Source: Escherichia phage SmurfNell. From it: a DNA stretch of 64,000 nucleotides. This document shows, in pieces, positions 2,115-46,114 of this stretch. Position numbers and translations under genes: made by a program. Location of the stretch: the sequence record OR896824.1; one strand, written 5' to 3'. A model generated the notes under the pieces. It did no database searches, was not told the origin of the DNA, and saw only the letters and a program-made list of their open reading frames with translations. How positions within the stretch are numbered: position 1 is the stretch's first letter; every line of letters begins with the position of its first letter.

Positions 2115-3989
2115 TTATTTAGCGCGAATGTCCTGATGTTTCACTCGACCCATAACCTCATGTTGTTTACCTGGGTTAAATGGACGAGCACCTGGATTTC
2201 CGAGATATCCACAAACTCGACGAGTTACCTCAAGAGTCTCAGGATCATGGTTGCCACAAATTGGGCATTTGAAACCATCCTCAGAAGCTATAGTTTCACC
2301 CAAGAACCCACATTCCCCACAAGAGTCTACTGGAGTATTAATACCAAAGTAATGAACTTTACTTGCGGCATAGTTAATAACCCATTCCAGTGCATCTGGG
2401 AATCGTTTCATATCCGGCAATTCCACATAGGAAATGCATCCACCAGAAGCAATTGGAGTAAAGTTAGACTCATAATCGAACTTCACGTTTGGAGCAACCT
2501 TACGTTCTACATCAAGGTGATGGGAATTAGTGTAATATCCTTTAGCCAGAATATCTTCATGCTCTGGAAAATACTCACGGTCTAGGCGACAGAAGCGATC
2601 ACATAGAGATTCAGATGGTGTAGCATATAGACTATACCCTAATTGAGTCTCTTCCTTCTTCTGATCAGCACGATCACGCATGTATTGTAGCACACGTTGA
2701 ACGAACTTGACACAAGACTCAGACATTGTATCTACATCTTTACCAAACATGAACTGCAACATTTCGTGGCAGCCTATATATCCTAGAGATACAGAAGCAC
2801 GCTTGTAGAAATGATCAAACACATATTCATCTGGCCCCAGACGTAATCCAAAGGCTCCTGACATATAGAGGATGGGTGCAGCTTTAGCTTGGATGTATTT
2901 TAAGCGATCAACCCTCCACTCCAATGCTTTTAACGCGGTATCCACACGCAGCTCAAGTAGATCGAAGAATAGATCAATATTTCCTTCCGCTTCGATAGCG
3001 ATTCGAGGAAGGTTTACGGAAACAACACCTAAGTTATTACGGCCAGAAGTTTCACCATCTTCCGCAGCAGCTAGGAATGATCGACAGCCCATAGAGACTT
3101 TGTAGTCTCCCGTAACTTCTACAACCTTATCATAACTGATGTAGTCAGGATACATACGTTCAGCAGTACATTTCATAGCTAACTTCTTGATATCATAGTT
3201 AACATCACCAGGTTTCATATTTACGCCATCACGCAAAACAAATACCAGTTTAGGGAAGATAGCTGTACGTTTATTGATACCCAAACCATCCATACGCACT
3301 TCTAAGATTGCTTTCTGTACAAGACGTGCTTCCCAGGAAGTTCCTAGACCAAAACCAAAGGTAATAAATGGACTCTGACCATTAGAGTTGAACATCGTAT
3401 TGATTTCATACTCTAGACCTTGACAGGCATCGTAAACTTCTTTCTCAGTCATTTCCGTAGCCATTACAGATGCTTTGGCTTCATCCTTAGTCCAACGCTT
3501 TGCAAACGCATGATTCTTATCATAAGACTTACGAACATAAGGAGCCAGTACTTCATCTAATCGGTCTACAGAAGTACCACCATATTGATGGGAGCTAACC
3601 TGAGTAATAATCTGAGCTGTAATAGCAGCCGCAGTAGTAATGGAGTTTGGCGTACTGATTTCAGCATTACCAACCTTCATACCGTTTTTCAACATATCTT
3701 CCAAAGCAACCAGGCAACAGTTAGTCATACCTAACACAGCGTAATCAGCATCATGGAAGTGAATATCACCAATCATGTGAGCATTTCGAATCTGGATTGG
3801 CATTTCTTCCAGAATCAGATATTTACTCAATTCCCCTGCAAGCATGTCCCTTTGTGTAGGGAAACGTTCTGAGGGCTTATTGGCATTATTAAACAGCAGC
3901 TCTTCATCTGCTGACCCTTCGATAATCTCTTTGCAGTTTCTAATTAACGCCTGCATTTCTTTATACTTTAGTTCTTCATTGCGATTCAT
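2115..3989 (-). CDS. nrdD: anaerobic ribonucleoside-triphosphate reductase (class III RNR)
   Basis: 624 aa; C-terminal glycyl radical motif RVCGYLG preceded by a CGECGF...CPICG zinc ribbon. Confidence 0.85.
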   Translation of the reverse strand: MNRNEELKYKEMQALIRNCKEIIEGSADEELLFNNANKPSERFPTQRDMLAGELSKYLILEEMPIQIRNAHMIGDIHFHDADYAVLGMTNCCLVALEDMLKNGMKVGNAEISTPNSITTAAAITAQIITQVSSHQYGGTSVDRLDEVLAPYVRKSYDKNHAFAKRWTKDEAKASVMATEMTEKEVYDACQGLEYEINTMFNSNGQSPFITFGFGLGTSWEARLVQKAILEVRMDGLGINKRTAIFPKLVFVLRDGVNMKPGDVNYDIKKLAMKCTAERMYPDYISYDKVVEVTGDYKVSMGCRSFLAAAEDGETSGRNNLGVVSVNLPRIAIEAEGNIDLFFDLLELRVDTALKALEWRVDRLKYIQAKAAPILYMSGAFGLRLGPDEYVFDHFYKRASVSLGYIGCHEMLQFMFGKDVDTMSESCVKFVQRVLQYMRDRADQKKEETQLGYSLYATPSESLCDRFCRLDREYFPEHEDILAKGYYTNSHHLDVERKVAPNVKFDYESNFTPIASGGCISYVELPDMKRFPDALEWVINYAASKVHYFGINTPVDSCGECGFLGETIASEDGFKCPICGNHDPETLEVTRRVCGYLGNPGARPFNPGKQHEVMGRVKHQDIRAK

Positions 3990-4182: not shown

Positions 4183-4674
4183 ATGAATACTGAAATAACA
4201 CAAGACCTACTAAGAACCTACTTTGACTATAAAGATGGAGAATTGTTTTACAAACCAACCTATAAAACCCCTGCGGGAAGAATATCCAAAAAAGCAGGTA
4301 AATCTGCCAGACTAACTCCGTGTAACGGGTACTATCGTATAAATGTACCAAGAATAGGTGTACAGAAAGAACATAGGATGATTTTCCTATATCATGAAGG
4401 ATACCTACCAGAAGTAGTAGATCATATTGATAGGGATAAAGAAAATAATAGGATAGAGAACCTTAGGGCATCTAATCTTCAGGATAACGCTATTAATCGC
4501 TCCATAAGTAAGAGTAATACCTCTGGTATTGTGGGTGTACATTATGATGAATCATATGGTAAGTGGGTTGTAACGTATAGGGGTAAGTACTTTGGAAGAT
4601 TCGATACTAAAGAAGAAGCTGCCGAAGTTAATGCTAATGTTCGTGCCCTTGATCAAACCCGTATAAATAGTTGA
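4183..4674 (+). CDS. HNH homing endonuclease with AP2-like DNA-binding domain
   Basis: HRMIFLYHEGYLPEVVDHIDRDKENNRIENLR HNH motif; C-terminal GIVGVHYDESYGKWVVTYRGKYFGRF AP2-like repeat. Confidence 0.75.
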   Translation: MNTEITQDLLRTYFDYKDGELFYKPTYKTPAGRISKKAGKSARLTPCNGYYRINVPRIGVQKEHRMIFLYHEGYLPEVVDHIDRDKENNRIENLRASNLQDNAINRSISKSNTSGIVGVHYDESYGKWVVTYRGKYFGRFDTKEEAAEVNANVRALDQTRINS

Positions 4675-8390: not shown

Positions 8391-8888
8391 ATGAAATTAA
8401 CACAGAGTAGATTAAAAGAGCTAATCTCCTATGACCCTGAAACTGGCGAATTTACCTGGCTCCCAAGAAAAACTTTAGCAAAGCATTTATGGAACGCTAA
8501 AGCAGGAACCTATGATAAATTAGGGTATCTTCGTATAAAAGTTGAAGGAGTTCAATATTTAGCTCATCGCCTAGCCTTCTTGTATATGACTGGAGAAATA
8601 CCAGAAGGAAAAATTGACCATAAAGATACTAATCCGTCTAATTGCGCCTGGGATAATCTCCGTGAAGCCACGAGTTCTCAAAATTCTATGAACTCGTGTG
8701 CAAGATCGGATAACCAGCTTGGAATGAAAAATATTCGTGTAAAAGGCACTTCATTTCAGGTTAGGATAGGCAAAGACGGCAAATCTTATACAAAAACTTT
8801 TAAAACCCTAGAAGAAGCTATAGAATGGAGAGACACCAAACTACTAGAACTTCATGGGGACTTTGCAAACAACGGAGAAGCTAAATGA
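8391..8888 (+). CDS. HNH homing endonuclease (free-standing, between nrdA and nrdB)
   Basis: EGKIDHKDTNPSNCAWDNLREAT HNH motif; C-terminal AP2-like repeat; stop overlaps the nrdB start. Confidence 0.75.
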   Translation: MKLTQSRLKELISYDPETGEFTWLPRKTLAKHLWNAKAGTYDKLGYLRIKVEGVQYLAHRLAFLYMTGEIPEGKIDHKDTNPSNCAWDNLREATSSQNSMNSCARSDNQLGMKNIRVKGTSFQVRIGKDGKSYTKTFKTLEEAIEWRDTKLLELHGDFANNGEAK

Positions 8889-30590: not shown

Positions 30591-30620
30591 TTGCCTTCTC
30601 TCTTATTTCTTGTTATAATA
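30591..30620 (+). promoter_or_regulatory. early promoter (TTGCCT-18-TATAAT)
   Basis: consensus hexamers plus ATAAATTAATGAGAGGG box. Confidence 0.55.
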
Positions 30621-30649: not shown

Positions 30650-30943
30650 ATGAAACGTTATCTTTCTGTCGTGTTCCAAACTGGTGGTCAACGCTACACT
30701 TATGAATTTCCTGAGTCCTGGAAAATTAAAGAAGGTGATCAAGTTGTTGTATTAACACCTCGTGAAGGCTTCAAAGTAGTAACGGTTAAACAAGTATTTC
30801 CAAAAGATCACGAACCATCTAAGTCTATTCAGTACAAGATGATTCATGGTCTAGTTCGTAAAGTACCACGAACTGAGGTAGAAGTAGATAAGACTGGTGA
30901 AGCTAAATACCAGTATACTTCTTACTTAGATGAAATGATGTAA
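30650..30943 (+). CDS. hypothetical protein
   Basis: 97 aa ORF. Confidence 0.5.
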   Translation: MKRYLSVVFQTGGQRYTYEFPESWKIKEGDQVVVLTPREGFKVVTVKQVFPKDHEPSKSIQYKMIHGLVRKVPRTEVEVDKTGEAKYQYTSYLDEMM

Positions 30944-30944
30944 T

Positions 30945-31020
30945 GCTCTGATAGTTCAACAGGTTAGAACAGGCGACCGATAATCGTCAAATCTTGGTTC
31001 GATCCCAAGTCGGAGTACCA
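30945..31020 (+). tRNA. tRNA-Ile (anticodon GAU)
   Basis: Acceptor GCTCTGA/TCGGAGT, D-arm GTTC..GAAC, anticodon arm GGCGA-CCGATAA-TCGTC, T-loop TTCGATC, CCA. Confidence 0.65.
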
Positions 31021-31026
31021 AATTAT

Positions 31027-31099
31027 AGTTAGTTGGCAGAGCGGTTATGCACCTCCTTCATACGGAGCGACTACAGTGGTTCAAATCCACTACTAACTA
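31027..31099 (+). tRNA. tRNA with CAU anticodon (third copy), no encoded CCA
   Basis: Perfect acceptor AGTTAGT/ACTAACT, anticodon loop TTCATAC, T-arm AGTGG-TTCAAAT-CCACT; followed by ACTA rather than CCA. Confidence 0.45.
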
Positions 31100-31470
31100 C
31101 TAAACAGAGGATCAGGTAATTGTACCAGATCCTGCTGAGAAGAGAGTCCACATTCTATAAATGGCCGGGCGTGACAGCAGGAAGTAGACTGCAACTCCAT
31201 GCTATCCAGGAGTATAAATGTAGAAGCTAAGACTTTAGATAGCCATTGTCTTAGCGTGAGCAATCACGTAGTTGCAACAGACCTGGAAGATCGCAACGTT
31301 AAAATCAAAGTTCCAGTGCTTATTTATCTAATCGAGACCATCAATCTCACCGGAATGCTAGCACCCCAACAGTAGCTAGTGATTAGATAATAAGCAAGCC
31401 TGCCTTCCAGTTTTTATCTTGCTTCTGGGTTAACAAAAAGCTGAGCCAAATTCTAACATCAGGGAGATCT
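31100..31470 (+). other. structured non-coding region downstream of the tRNA island
   Basis: 370 nt without an ORF of 60 aa or more; higher GC than flanks; hairpins such as GGATCAGG...CCAGATCC. Confidence 0.25.
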
Positions 31471-31471
31471 A

Positions 31472-31840
31472 ATGAAAGCATATCAAAGTCTTAAGTCTGG
31501 CGTAATTAACATTGTTCATAACAATCAGATCATTCAACTATACTCTAAAGATGGTGAACTTAAACAGAAAGTTCTAGTTGAAGATCTAGAAGGTATCACA
31601 CCTCACTTTGACCCTGAGGCCTTTCGCATTGTAGATGTGGAAGTGGTTCCCCAAGTCGAGGGTGGTCAGCACCTAAATGTCAATGTGTTAAGCCGTGATC
31701 AGCTTTTGGATGCGCAGAAACATCCTGAAAAATATCCTCAGTTGACCATCCGTGTCTCTGGCTATGCTGTTCGATTTAACGCATTGACGCGTGAACAACA
31801 GAACGACGTTATTAGTCGTACATTTACTCAGGCGATATAA
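31472..31840 (+). CDS. grcA: autonomous glycyl radical cofactor (GrcA/YfiD-like)
   Basis: C-terminal [12 protein letters not shown]...[21 protein letters not shown] is nearly identical in pattern to the E. coli GrcA glycyl-radical domain (from memory). Confidence 0.8.
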
Positions 31841-31921: not shown

Positions 31922-32215
31922 GTGGATCGAGCATTAAGACGCCATCACTGGCAACGTGTGAAAAACAACCGAAAGAAGTATTGGACAGTATTCCCTCATG
32001 AAGAAAGTCCTAAGCGGTTAGGCATTATTACTACCACGCCTTGCATCTGTTCTTGTTGGATGTGTGGGAATCCTCGCAAATACTATAAGAATAGTAAAGC
32101 AGGTATGAAAATCTCGGAGATTAAAAAGATGGATGCAATGATCTTAGGTATCGGATACGGCGAAGGTATTTCAAATGATGAATTTGATGGCTTCGTAGGT
32201 TTCGGTGAAGGTTAA
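31922..32215 (+). CDS. hypothetical protein
   Basis: 97 aa ORF, basic N-terminus, Cys cluster CICSCWMC. Confidence 0.4.
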   Translation: MDRALRRHHWQRVKNNRKKYWTVFPHEESPKRLGIITTTPCICSCWMCGNPRKYYKNSKAGMKISEIKKMDAMILGIGYGEGISNDEFDGFVGFGEG

Positions 32216-32223
32216 TTAATAAT

Positions 32224-32262
32224 AAACCCCGGCTATTGAATAAGTAGTCTGGGGTTTTCTTG
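32224..32262 (+). terminator. rho-independent terminator
   Basis: AACCCCGG...CTGGGGTT hairpin followed by TTCTT. Confidence 0.55.
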
Positions 32263-32523: not shown

Positions 32524-32919
32524 ATGAGCCGTACATATCGTAAACAATCTGGTGATCGTCACTGGCGTGATGCACATCGTTCTACTTATAATTTTCATAG
32601 CACTAATATCCGTATTCCGTATATCTACACGGATAGGGATGGTAAGCAGTGGAAATATTATCAAGTTCGATCCAATGAAGCATGGGCTAAAACTTGGGAT
32701 GAAATTGAGAAGGAGATTCAGGAAAATATCATTCGTAACGAGAAGAAAGATGGGCACTGGTGGGATTCTATTAGTAGAAGTGTTAAGTGGCATTCTAACA
32801 AAATGGTTCGTCAGGGAAACCGTCGTGAACTTCACCGTGTGATGAAAGATCCAGAAAATTACGACTATAATCGTGATCATGACCTGCGTAAGCGTGGGTT
32901 ATGGTGGGTTTACGACTAA
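32524..32919 (+). CDS. hypothetical protein (Trp/His/Arg-rich)
   Basis: 131 aa ORF with GGAGG RBS. Confidence 0.5.
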   Translation: MSRTYRKQSGDRHWRDAHRSTYNFHSTNIRIPYIYTDRDGKQWKYYQVRSNEAWAKTWDEIEKEIQENIIRNEKKDGHWWDSISRSVKWHSNKMVRQGNRRELHRVMKDPENYDYNRDHDLRKRGLWWVYD

Positions 32920-45325: not shown

Positions 45326-45789
45326 CAGCACTGCAAAGATTACAGAATTACTGGTTTGATGGCCAATTTAATGATTTATTCATCCAGTTGTTTGTCGAAA
45401 CGAACGGACGTTTTAATTACCGCTTCTTTAATACTTTCCATGAAACGAAGTTCTCGCATACAGAGATTAACGCAGCGATTCAAGATCTCACTGGTTCTAA
45501 GGTAATTCCTTATCGTGATGTAGATTTTGCACCTGACTGTTTTGGTTTTGAACTGTTTAAGAAAGCATATAAGTTCGGTAAGTTCGAAGATGCACGACAT
45601 TGGGTTCATGACTTCTGGTATAATACCGATATCGTCCCTAGCCGTGTACTGATCCTCAACTGGATTGCTAAACAACATCCGCCGAAGGCACAATCGGCAT
45701 TCCTTCCAACTGATACAGGAAATCTTTACCATGACACAAAAGAAAAATCCAGTGCTAGAGCAGATGAAGCAGTTGGAGAAGCAGATTGA
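45322..45789 (+). CDS. hypothetical protein
   Basis: 155 aa ORF. Confidence 0.45.
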   Translation: MTALQRLQNYWFDGQFNDLFIQLFVETNGRFNYRFFNTFHETKFSHTEINAAIQDLTGSKVIPYRDVDFAPDCFGFELFKKAYKFGKFEDARHWVHDFWYNTDIVPSRVLILNWIAKQHPPKAQSAFLPTDTGNLYHDTKEKSSARADEAVGEAD

Positions 45790-46114
45790 GGAAGGAAGCG
45801 TTGATGGACAGTCAATTGTCAATCATGCTTTTGATCTTACAGTAGGATGTGCTAATCCGCTGGTGGCAGGTGAAACAGCAGATATTCTTGGGCTTTTAAT
45901 GGCAGTTGGCCAGTTAATCGAGATTACCCAAGAAGAGCTAGACAATGATGAAGAAGTAACTGTTCATGATGTTCTTGGTGCTCTAGATCTGATTGTTAAT
46001 GCTTATGCCTATAAACGCCGCCACTCAATTGATGAATATCTAGTTTCTCGTGAGATTACCGAATCTCTTCTGGAAACTGCTGATATGGCCTTAAACGGCA
46101 AGCAACTTCACTAA
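45731..46114 (+). CDS. acidic hypothetical protein
   Basis: Internal ATG of track ORF 45665..46114. Confidence 0.35.
   Translation: MTQKKNPVLEQMKQLEKQIEEGSVDGQSIVNHAFDLTVGCANPLVAGETADILGLLMAVGQLIEITQEELDNDEEVTVHDVLGALDLIVNAYAYKRRHSIDEYLVSREITESLLETADMALNGKQLH

What the first reader, a model, noticed from the sequence alone, without database searches (positions are those of the whole stretch)
31472..31840. Phage copy of the autonomous glycyl-radical cofactor GrcA
The C-terminal 60 residues are almost motif-for-motif the E. coli GrcA glycyl-radical domain ([32 protein letters not shown], from memory), while the N-terminus is divergent. The phage also encodes a glycyl-radical class III RNR (nrdD, 2115..3989) but I find no adjacent NrdG activase. 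GrcA might rescue oxygen-damaged glycyl-radical enzymes during infection.
Basis: partly seen in the sequence, partly recalled or inferred. Interest (0 to 1): 0.55.

Follow-up and report, generated by a model that had tools for sequence, protein, structure and literature searches.

The report
T5-like phage GrcA spare-part protein
This is an intact, conserved phage gene for a small "spare part" protein that most likely lets the host's oxygen-damaged pyruvate formate-lyase work again; the T4 homologue was tested in 2001 and T5 and hundreds of relatives already carry an annotated copy, so it is real but ordinary.

Summary
The ORF at 31472..31840 (+, 122 aa) is real. It is a full-length member of the phage GrcA/Y06I family.

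- **Similarity.** Its C-terminal 60 residues carry the glycyl-radical domain, with RVSG97Y. They are 74% identical to E. coli GrcA and 77% to the C-terminus of PflB. The whole protein is 51% identical to T4 vs.6 (Y06I). Wagner et al. 2001 showed that Y06I is activated by PFL-activating enzyme and restores oxygen-cleaved pyruvate formate-lyase.
- **Source.** The window comes from an Epseptimavirus, a T5-like Demerecviridae phage.
- **Prior annotation.** T5 has the ortholog T5.056 and BF23 has ORF trn 2.21. A tblastn search finds the gene in 1583 phage records, many already named "autonomous glycyl radical cofactor".
- **Function.** The gene is under strong purifying selection (dN/dS 0.02-0.19). 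It has a good ribosome-binding site and lies between homologs of a T5-annotated promoter and terminator.
- **N-terminal half.** It is diverged but still homologous to the GrcA N-terminus, through T4-type intermediates.
nrdD at 2115..3989 (-) is intact, and no NrdG or other radical-SAM gene exists in the window or in a closely related complete genome.
- **Rescue of NrdD.** This is not supported: the two proteins show no sequence similarity.

Verdict: already known, low interest.

The parts
31472..31840 (+). grcA-like CDS (122 aa plus stop). Ortholog of T5.056 and BF23 ORF trn 2.21; homolog of T4 vs.6 (Y06I).
31472..31651 (+). N-terminal half (residues 1-60). A diverged version of the GrcA N-terminal region, which in E. 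coli YfiD promotes binding to cleaved PFL and radical installation.
   Evidence: hhalign on N-terminal halves only: T5-type against T4/jumbo-phage type, 91.6% probability, E=8e-7; T4/jumbo type against bacterial GrcA, 96.8%, E=2.6e-10; direct T5-type against bacterial, only 30%. dN/dS 0.05-0.22. Role of the N-half in YfiD from PMC8683613.
31652..31837 (+). C-terminal glycyl-radical domain (residues 61-122), which mimics PflB residues 698-759.
   Evidence: Pfam PF01228. PDB 6owr and PFL structures matched by sequence and by fold: Foldseek to 6owr E=1.8e-5 with TM 0.75 on the target. 36 columns are invariant across 21 phage and bacterial homologs. dN/dS 0-0.09.
31760..31762 (+). Codon of Gly97 in RVSGY, the predicted glycyl-radical site. 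It is equivalent to G734 of PflB and G102 of E. coli GrcA.
31461..31466 (+). Shine-Dalgarno sequence AGGGAG, 5 nt upstream of the ATG.
   Evidence: read directly from the sequence; identical in PECP14 and gmork
30591..30619 (+). Homolog of the T5/BF23 early promoter P11 (-35 TTGCCT, 17-nt spacer, -10 TATAAT). It probably drives the unit ORF 30650..30943, tRNA-Ile, tRNA-Met, grcA, ORF 31922..32215.
   Evidence: Near-identical alignment to the annotated P11 of BF23 and T5. That this promoter drives grcA is inferred.
30945..31100 (+). tRNA-Ile (GAU) and tRNA-Met (CAU), just upstream in the same inferred transcription unit.
31922..32215 (+). Downstream 97-aa Cys-rich ORF (= T5.055 / BF23 trn 2.22), probably co-transcribed. 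Function unknown.
32226..32258 (+). Rho-independent terminator hairpin (AAACCCCGGCTA...TAGTCTGGGGTTTT), homologous to the annotated T5 terminator and BF23 ter2.
   Evidence: with annotations
2115..3989 (-). Context only: nrdD, class III (glycyl-radical) ribonucleotide reductase. It is intact, and the phage has no nrdG.

Best explanation
The gene encodes a phage version of the autonomous glycyl-radical cofactor (the GrcA/YfiD and T4 Y06I family).

Proposed mechanism:
1. The gene is expressed early in infection from a T5-type early promoter.
2. The 14-kDa protein is a substrate of the host's pyruvate formate-lyase activating enzyme (PflA). PflA uses S-adenosylmethionine to abstract a hydrogen from Gly97 and leaves a glycyl radical.
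3. Oxygen can cut host pyruvate formate-lyase (PflB) at its own radical glycine, G734. The phage protein's C-terminal domain, 77% identical to PflB 698-758, then docks into the damaged enzyme in place of the lost piece and restores catalysis.
4. The N-terminal half helps binding and radical installation, as it does in YfiD.
5. The result is that host fermentative production of acetyl-CoA, ATP and formate continues during infection in microaerobic, gut-like conditions.

What is shown here: family membership, an intact radical motif, purifying selection, and homologs of T5's annotated expression signals.

What is inferred by homology: activation by PflA, rescue of PFL, and the benefit to the phage.
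For: - Family: Pfam Gly_radical E=4e-18. PHROG 1209 is matched over the full length at E=7e-47, the same family as T4 vs.6. Identity to T4 vs.6/Y06I is 51% over the whole length.
- Similarity to the known proteins: 74% identity to E. coli GrcA and 47/61 to the PflB C-terminus. The AF2 model's C-terminal half superposes on the YfiD NMR structure and on PFL crystal structures.
- Precedent: T4 Y06I and E. coli YfiD are activated by PFL-AE and reconstitute oxygen-cleaved PFL (Wagner et al. 2001, as summarised in PMC8683613, and PMC13450708).
- Conserved residues: RVSGY and 36 other columns are invariant across phage and bacterial homologs.
- Selection: dN/dS is 0.02-0.19 among T5-like orthologs, and low in both halves.
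- Expression signals: a Shine-Dalgarno sequence and homologs of T5's annotated promoter P11 and terminator.
- Host range: the gene occurs in 1583 phage records, almost all from phages of Enterobacteriaceae, Aeromonas and Vibrio, hosts that use PFL (that these hosts use PFL is established knowledge).
Against: - No experiment exists for any T5-type copy.
- The N-terminal half, which YfiD needs for efficient binding and activation, is much diverged. It aligns with bacterial GrcA only through T4-type intermediates.
- The protein scores 118 bits on the NCBIfam GrcA equivalog model, below the 170-bit cutoff. The experimentally validated T4 Y06I also falls below it at 151 bits.
- A fitness benefit to a fast lytic phage has never been measured, even for T4.
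Confidence: 0.8

Rival explanations
1. The protein rescues host PFL, but its selected purpose is to supply nucleotide synthesis. By keeping PFL active it keeps up the supply of formate, the reductant that T4-type and E. coli-type class III ribonucleotide reductases use. The phage's own NrdD can then make dNTPs under low oxygen. This refines the best explanation rather than excluding it.
For: The phage carries an intact NrdD, 51% identical in global alignment to a T4-type NrdD, with the catalytic Cys, Asn and Gly residues conserved. The phage groups found to carry grcA-like genes (T5-like, T4-like, about 350-kb jumbo phages, Vibrio KVP40-like phages) also appear among the NrdD hits. Counts of near-identical T5-type copies are similar: 423 records for GrcA at 90% identity or more, 387 for NrdD. 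Formate as the NrdD reductant is established biochemistry (Mulliez et al. 1995, from my own knowledge, not checked here).
Against: Co-occurrence was not tested record by record. These are large phages that carry many nucleotide-metabolism genes anyway. NrdD is in 2923 records and GrcA in only 1583, so many NrdD phages do without it. I found no literature support in the searches made.
Confidence: 0.2
2. It is a spare part for the phage's own NrdD, or for some glycyl-radical enzyme other than PFL.
For: The phage has two glycyl-radical proteins and no activase. Reviewers of the field note that spare parts for glycyl-radical enzymes other than PFL have not been excluded (PMC8683613; PMC13450708).
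Against: BLASTP of the protein against the window's NrdD finds nothing (E=17). The NrdD radical site is RRVCGYLG, preceded by a four-cysteine zinc site, which is a different architecture. By contrast the match to the PflB C-terminus is 47/61. Scores against other glycyl-radical enzymes are far lower, E from 1e-12 to 1e-5 against 1e-26 for PFL. TdcE, a close PflB paralog, cannot be excluded as a second client.
Confidence: 0.03
3. It is a decoy or competitor. It soaks up host PflA or binds PFL without restoring activity, and so redirects host pyruvate metabolism.
For: YfiD binds cleaved PFL and competes for PFL-AE (PMC8683613). The N-terminal half has diverged.
Against: Every residue invariant across GrcA homologs, including the radical glycine and its flanks, is retained under very strong constraint (C-half dN/dS 0-0.09). 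A pure binder would not be expected to keep all of them. The T4 homolog restores activity.
Confidence: 0.05
4. It is a non-functional fragment of a host pflB or grcA gene picked up by the phage.
For: Many records annotate it as 'pyruvate formate-lyase' or 'acetyltransferase-related'.
Against: The full-length ORF is conserved in more than 400 T5-like records at 90% amino-acid identity or more. Synonymous divergence is high (dS up to 0.55) while dN stays at 0.06 or less. It has its own ribosome-binding site and a conserved operon position. Nucleotide and protein sequence differ from the host genes (74-77% amino-acid identity only).
Confidence: 0.01

Closest known systems
Bacteriophage T4 Y06I (gene vs.6), autonomous glycyl radical cofactor
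   Same: Stand-alone phage protein of about 120 aa. Both match PHROG 1209 over their full length. Identity is 51% end to end, with the same MKAYQ start and the same RVSGY radical motif. Both are carried by a virulent enterobacterial phage that also encodes NrdD.
   Different: The T5-type N-terminal half carries an insertion of about 7 residues and few identities. The T4-type C-terminal 52 residues are identical or nearly identical to E. coli GrcA, whereas the T5-type differs at about 10 positions. T4 also encodes its own NrdG; this phage has no activase. The genomic context differs: a tRNA cluster here, the vs-regB region in T4. The T5-type protein has not been tested experimentally.
E. coli GrcA (YfiD), PDB 6OWR, NCBIfam TIGR04365
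   Same: Same size class. Identity is 74% over the C-terminal 72 residues. The fold of the glycyl-radical domain is the same. The N-terminal halves are homologous through intermediates.
   Different: The score is below the TIGR04365 trusted cutoff (118 against 170 bits), and only residues 54-121 align. The gene is phage-encoded and sits under a phage early promoter. (The FNR/ArcA-regulated host promoter of bacterial grcA is background knowledge, not checked here.)
C-terminal glycyl-radical domain of pyruvate formate-lyase PflB (and TdcE)
   Same: 47/61 identical to PflB 698-758, including the radical glycine loop.
   Different: It lacks the roughly 700-residue barrel with the catalytic Cys418/Cys419. 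It therefore cannot be a formate acetyltransferase on its own, and the 'pyruvate formate-lyase' label in many phage records is a misnomer.
T5.056 and BF23 ORF trn 2.21 (orthologs in the type phages of the family)
   Same: About 91-92% amino-acid identity (BF23 91.8%). Same position after tRNA-Ile and tRNA-Met and before a small Cys-rich ORF and a terminator.
   Different: In T5 and BF23 the gene starts 13 nt after tRNA-Met. Here a 371-nt spacer intervenes.

Membership tests
Autonomous glycyl radical cofactor, phage type (T4 Y06I/vs.6; PHROG 1209) | Full-length sequence match to the family profile and to the characterised member | tested here: met
   phrog_1209 E=7.2e-47, residues 1-122 on profile positions 1-121. 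T4 vs.6 hits the same PHROG at E=6e-62. BLASTP to T4 vs.6 gives 51% identity over the full length, E=5e-38.
Autonomous glycyl radical cofactor, phage type (T4 Y06I/vs.6; PHROG 1209) | Small stand-alone protein (about 14 kDa) that is not part of a larger glycyl-radical enzyme ORF | tested here: met
   122 aa, 13.9 kDa, with its own start, Shine-Dalgarno sequence and stop. The flanking ORFs are unrelated.
Autonomous glycyl radical cofactor, phage type (T4 Y06I/vs.6; PHROG 1209) | Glycyl-radical fingerprint RVSGY with PFL-type flanks | tested here: met
   PQLTIRVSG97YAVRFN is invariant in all 21 aligned homologs. Pfam PF01228 scores above its gathering cutoff.
Autonomous glycyl radical cofactor, phage type (T4 Y06I/vs.6; PHROG 1209) | Radical installation by PFL-activating enzyme and reconstitution of oxygen-cleaved PFL | not testable with these tools
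   Shown for T4 Y06I and E. coli YfiD only (Wagner 2001, via PMC8683613). For this protein it is inferred by homology.
Bacterial GrcA (NCBIfam TIGR04365 equivalog) | Score at or above the curated cutoff (170 bits) over the full-length model | tested here: not met
   118.3 bits, with only residues 54-121 aligned. T4 Y06I (151 bits) and jumbo-phage and Vibrio-phage copies (135-137 bits) also fail, while E. coli GrcA scores 234. The cutoff therefore separates bacterial from phage copies, not functional from non-functional ones.
Bacterial GrcA (NCBIfam TIGR04365 equivalog) | Homologous N-terminal region (residues 1-60 of YfiD) | tested here: inconclusive
   Direct hhalign of T5-type against bacterial N-halves: probability 30%, E=5.5e-4. 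Transitive support comes from T5-type against T4/jumbo type (91.6%) and T4/jumbo type against bacterial (96.8%).
Pyruvate formate-lyase / 2-ketobutyrate formate-lyase (full enzyme, TIGR01255) | A barrel of about 750 aa with the catalytic Cys-Cys pair | tested here: not met
   Only profile positions 683-743 of 744 are matched, at 84 bits against a cutoff of 994.
Spare part for class III ribonucleotide reductase (hypothetical) | Sequence mimicry of the NrdD C-terminal glycyl-radical region | tested here: not met
   BLASTP against the window's own NrdD gives E=17. NrdD carries RRVCGYLG after a four-cysteine zinc site.

The most novel reading that the evidence does not exclude
Enterobacterial T5-like phages carry two glycyl-radical proteins (NrdD and the GrcA-like protein) but no radical-SAM activase, so both would depend on host activases (NrdG and PflA). 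On the most novel reading, the GrcA-like protein is kept mainly to hold host PFL active and so supply formate, the reductant of the phage's NrdD. This would be a two-gene phage strategy for dNTP synthesis at fluctuating oxygen. The diverged N-terminal half would be tuned to that task or to a different client, such as TdcE.
Probability: 0.15. Interest if true: 0.4.

Novelty: already known. Interest (0 to 1): 0.12.

Why it matters
It matters little as a discovery. A phage GrcA was demonstrated biochemically for T4 in 2001, and the T5-family copy is already in the T5 and BF23 reference annotations and in hundreds of newer records.

Three modest points of value remain:
- Many records mislabel the gene as 'pyruvate formate-lyase', 'acetyltransferase-related protein' or even 'ribonucleotide reductase subunit'. 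The correct name is autonomous glycyl radical cofactor.
- The T5-type protein is a natural variant with a strongly diverged N-terminal half. It could help to work out what that still poorly understood region of YfiD does.
- The pairing of NrdD and GrcA without any activase in enterobacterial T5-like phages is a neat, testable case of a phage depending on host radical-SAM activases.

Tried and rejected
- **NrdG or any radical-SAM activase.** I ran tblastn with a T4-type NrdG and a CxxxCxxC scan over all six frames, in the window and in the complete gmork genome. Only chance hits appeared (E of 0.6 or more). The two Cys-motif ORFs found (31922..32215, and an antisense ORF at 45379..45822) are not credible radical-SAM proteins.
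- **Rescue of NrdD.** Rejected: no similarity.
- **Host gene fragment or pseudogene.** Rejected by dN/dS and by conservation across records.
- **A new folded N-terminal domain.** AF2 predicts beta strands at residues 2-36 with pLDDT 82-89. A control run on a bacterial GrcA, whose E. coli ortholog is disordered by NMR, gave an equally confident beta-rich N-terminal half. The prediction therefore does not distinguish the phage protein. Foldseek found no credible match for the N-terminal half.
- **A known RNA in the 371-nt upstream spacer.** Rfam found only the two tRNAs.
- **Literature.** Searches for T5 combined with nrdG, and for phage spare-part proteins beyond T4, found nothing specific. Two searches failed on term length.

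Full report
**Observation**

An AGGGAG Shine-Dalgarno sequence lies 5 nt upstream.

- Pfam's Gly_radical model matches residues 62-103 well above its gathering score (E=4e-18).
- The best solved-structure match by sequence is E. coli GrcA/YfiD (6owr, E=2e-29), followed by the C-terminus of pyruvate formate-lyase (E=1.6e-26).
- Identity is 74% to E. coli GrcA over residues 51-122 and 47/61 to PflB 698-758.
- The radical glycine is G97 in RVSGY.
- The N-terminal 50 residues do not align with bacterial GrcA by BLAST or by the NCBIfam model.

**Where the window comes from**

Megablast and tblastn place the window in the T5-like phages (Demerecviridae, Markadamsvirinae), genus Epseptimavirus. It is 93-99% identical in long blocks to Salmonella phage gmork, Escherichia phage PECP14 and many others.

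The gene lies at the end of a cluster of 30 tRNA genes.

**What the gene is**

A tblastn search of 50,697 phage records finds the protein in 1583 of them.
- About 420 are T5-like copies at 90% identity or more.
- Most of the rest are T4-like phages (about 50% identity over 100% of the length), where the gene is vs.6.
- Jumbo enterobacterial phages and Vibrio phages also carry it.
- Many records already name it 'autonomous glycyl radical cofactor (GrcA)'. Others carry misnomers such as 'pyruvate formate-lyase', '2-ketobutyrate formate-lyase', 'acetyltransferase-related protein' or 'ribonucleotide reductase subunit'.

The type phages carry annotated orthologs. T5 has T5.056, 'putative acetyltransferase-related protein, IPR001150'. 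BF23 has ORF trn 2.21, 'putative formate acetyltransferase'.

The window protein and genuine T4 vs.6 both match PHROG 1209 over their full length. They are 51% identical end to end.

T4 vs.6 is Y06I, one of only two experimentally validated 'spare part' proteins. According to PMC8683613 and the 2026 review PMC13450708, Wagner et al. (BBRC 2001) showed two things for E. coli YfiD and T4 Y06I. Both receive a glycyl radical from the PFL-activating enzyme. Both then reconstitute the catalytic centre of oxygen-cleaved pyruvate formate-lyase.

**Is it functional?**

I compared seven T5-like orthologs by the Nei-Gojobori method.
- dS reaches up to 0.55 while dN stays at 0.06 or less.
- Overall dN/dS is 0.02-0.19.
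- The N-terminal half gives 0.05-0.22 and the C-terminal half 0-0.09.

Both halves are therefore constrained, which rules out a decaying host fragment.

In T5 and BF23 the annotated transcription unit runs in this order:
1. promoter P11
2. a small ORF
3. tRNA-Ile
4. tRNA-Met
5. this gene
6. a small Cys-rich ORF
7. a rho-independent terminator

The window has near-identical homologs of both signals. The promoter has -35 TTGCCT at 30591-30596 and -10 TATAAT at 30614-30619. The terminator hairpin lies at about 32226-32258. That these signals actually work here is inferred.

**The divergent N-terminus**

I compared profiles built from the N-terminal halves alone.
- T4/jumbo-phage type against bacterial GrcA: 96.8% probability, E=2.6e-10.
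- T5-type against T4/jumbo type: 91.6%, E=8e-7.
- T5-type against bacterial GrcA directly: only 30%.

The N-half is therefore a strongly diverged GrcA N-terminal region with an insertion of about 7 residues. It is not a foreign domain.

In YfiD this half is disordered, yet it is needed for efficient binding to cleaved PFL and for radical installation (PMC8683613).

AlphaFold predicts a beta-rich N-half for the phage protein. A control on a bacterial GrcA gives the same result, so I draw no conclusion from it. The modelled C-half superposes on the YfiD NMR structure and on PFL.

**Membership caveat**

The protein scores 118 bits on the NCBIfam GrcA equivalog model, below the 170-bit cutoff. The validated T4 Y06I also falls short at 151 bits, while E. 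coli GrcA scores 234. The cutoff separates bacterial from phage copies, not function from non-function. I file the protein under the phage Y06I-type branch of the GrcA family.

**The nrdD and nrdG remark**

nrdD is at 2115..3989 on the minus strand. It is intact, with all T4-defined catalytic, zinc-site and radical residues conserved.

No NrdG-like gene is present in the window or in the whole 113-kb gmork genome, and the only CxxxCxxC-containing ORFs found are not credible radical-SAM genes.

Across the phage collection, NrdD is found in 2923 records and NrdG in 2278. For Salmonella phages the counts are 399 against 126, a gap that matches the number of Salmonella T5-like records. Vibrio T5-like phages of about 128 kb do encode NrdG.

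Enterobacterial T5-like phages therefore appear to rely on host activases for both of their glycyl-radical proteins. This is an inference.

The GrcA-like protein shows no similarity to NrdD (E=17), so it is not a spare part for NrdD.

An indirect link remains possible. PFL makes formate, and formate is the reductant of T4-type and E. coli-type class III reductases (established biochemistry, from my own knowledge, not checked here). I could not test this link.

**Verdict**

It is a T5-family ortholog of a protein family characterised in T4 and E. coli in 2001, and it is widely annotated.

The most likely mechanism is activation by host PflA and repair of oxygen-cleaved host PFL during infection. 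My confidence is about 0.8. Family membership is essentially certain; the biochemical steps are inferred by homology.

Interest is low.

Noticed in passing
window 31101-31471: A 371-nt non-coding spacer separates tRNA-Met from the grcA-like gene. It is 13 nt in T5 and BF23 and 183 nt in gmork. About 150 Epseptimavirus-type records carry it, mostly unannotated. The predicted RNA fold is more stable than shuffled controls (z=-2.95). There is no Rfam match. It contains a 58-aa ORF (31199..31375) with no Pfam hit. T5 has several unexplained 'stable RNAs' in its tRNA region, so a small RNA is conceivable.
   Followed up: partly
window 2115-3989 (-) and the whole genome of the relative MT074463 (L005-L007): Enterobacterial T5-like phages encode an intact class III reductase NrdD but no NrdG activase. 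T4-like phages and Vibrio T5-like phages encode both. Collection-wide counts are NrdD 2923 records against NrdG 2278. This implies dependence on host NrdG.
   Followed up: partly
window 31922-32215 (+): A 97-aa ORF with a CICSCWMC cysteine cluster lies directly downstream of grcA and before the terminator (= T5.055 / BF23 trn 2.22). It has no Pfam family and its function is unknown. Because it is co-transcribed with grcA, it could be functionally linked.
   Followed up: partly
L002:4001-4360 and L013:4561-4920 (T4-type vs.6): The C-terminal 52 residues of T4-type vs.6 are identical to E. coli GrcA in phage AR1 and differ by one residue in T4. The T5-type copy differs at about 10 of these positions. 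This suggests a more recent host-phage exchange, or stronger convergence, in the T4 lineage.
   Followed up: no
window 4183-4674 (+) and 8391-8888 (+): Two ORFs flank or interrupt the nucleotide-reductase cluster, one between nrdD and phoH and one between nrdA and nrdB. The first is an HNH_3/AP2-type homing-endonuclease ORF by Pfam. The second was not scanned; its counterpart in gmork shares a VOG with annotated homing endonucleases.
   Followed up: no
models m512d7d114e89 (window protein) and me8a9257bbf7a (bacterial GrcA P0098): AlphaFold2 predicts a confident beta-sheet N-terminal half (pLDDT 82-90) for both phage and bacterial GrcA. NMR shows that this half of E. coli YfiD is disordered in solution. 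The predicted fold may be the conformation adopted when bound to PFL.
   Followed up: partly
window 32524-32919 (+): A 131-aa ORF matches Pfam DUF7295 over its full length (E=6e-59). It is a conserved phage protein of unknown function two genes downstream of grcA.
   Followed up: no
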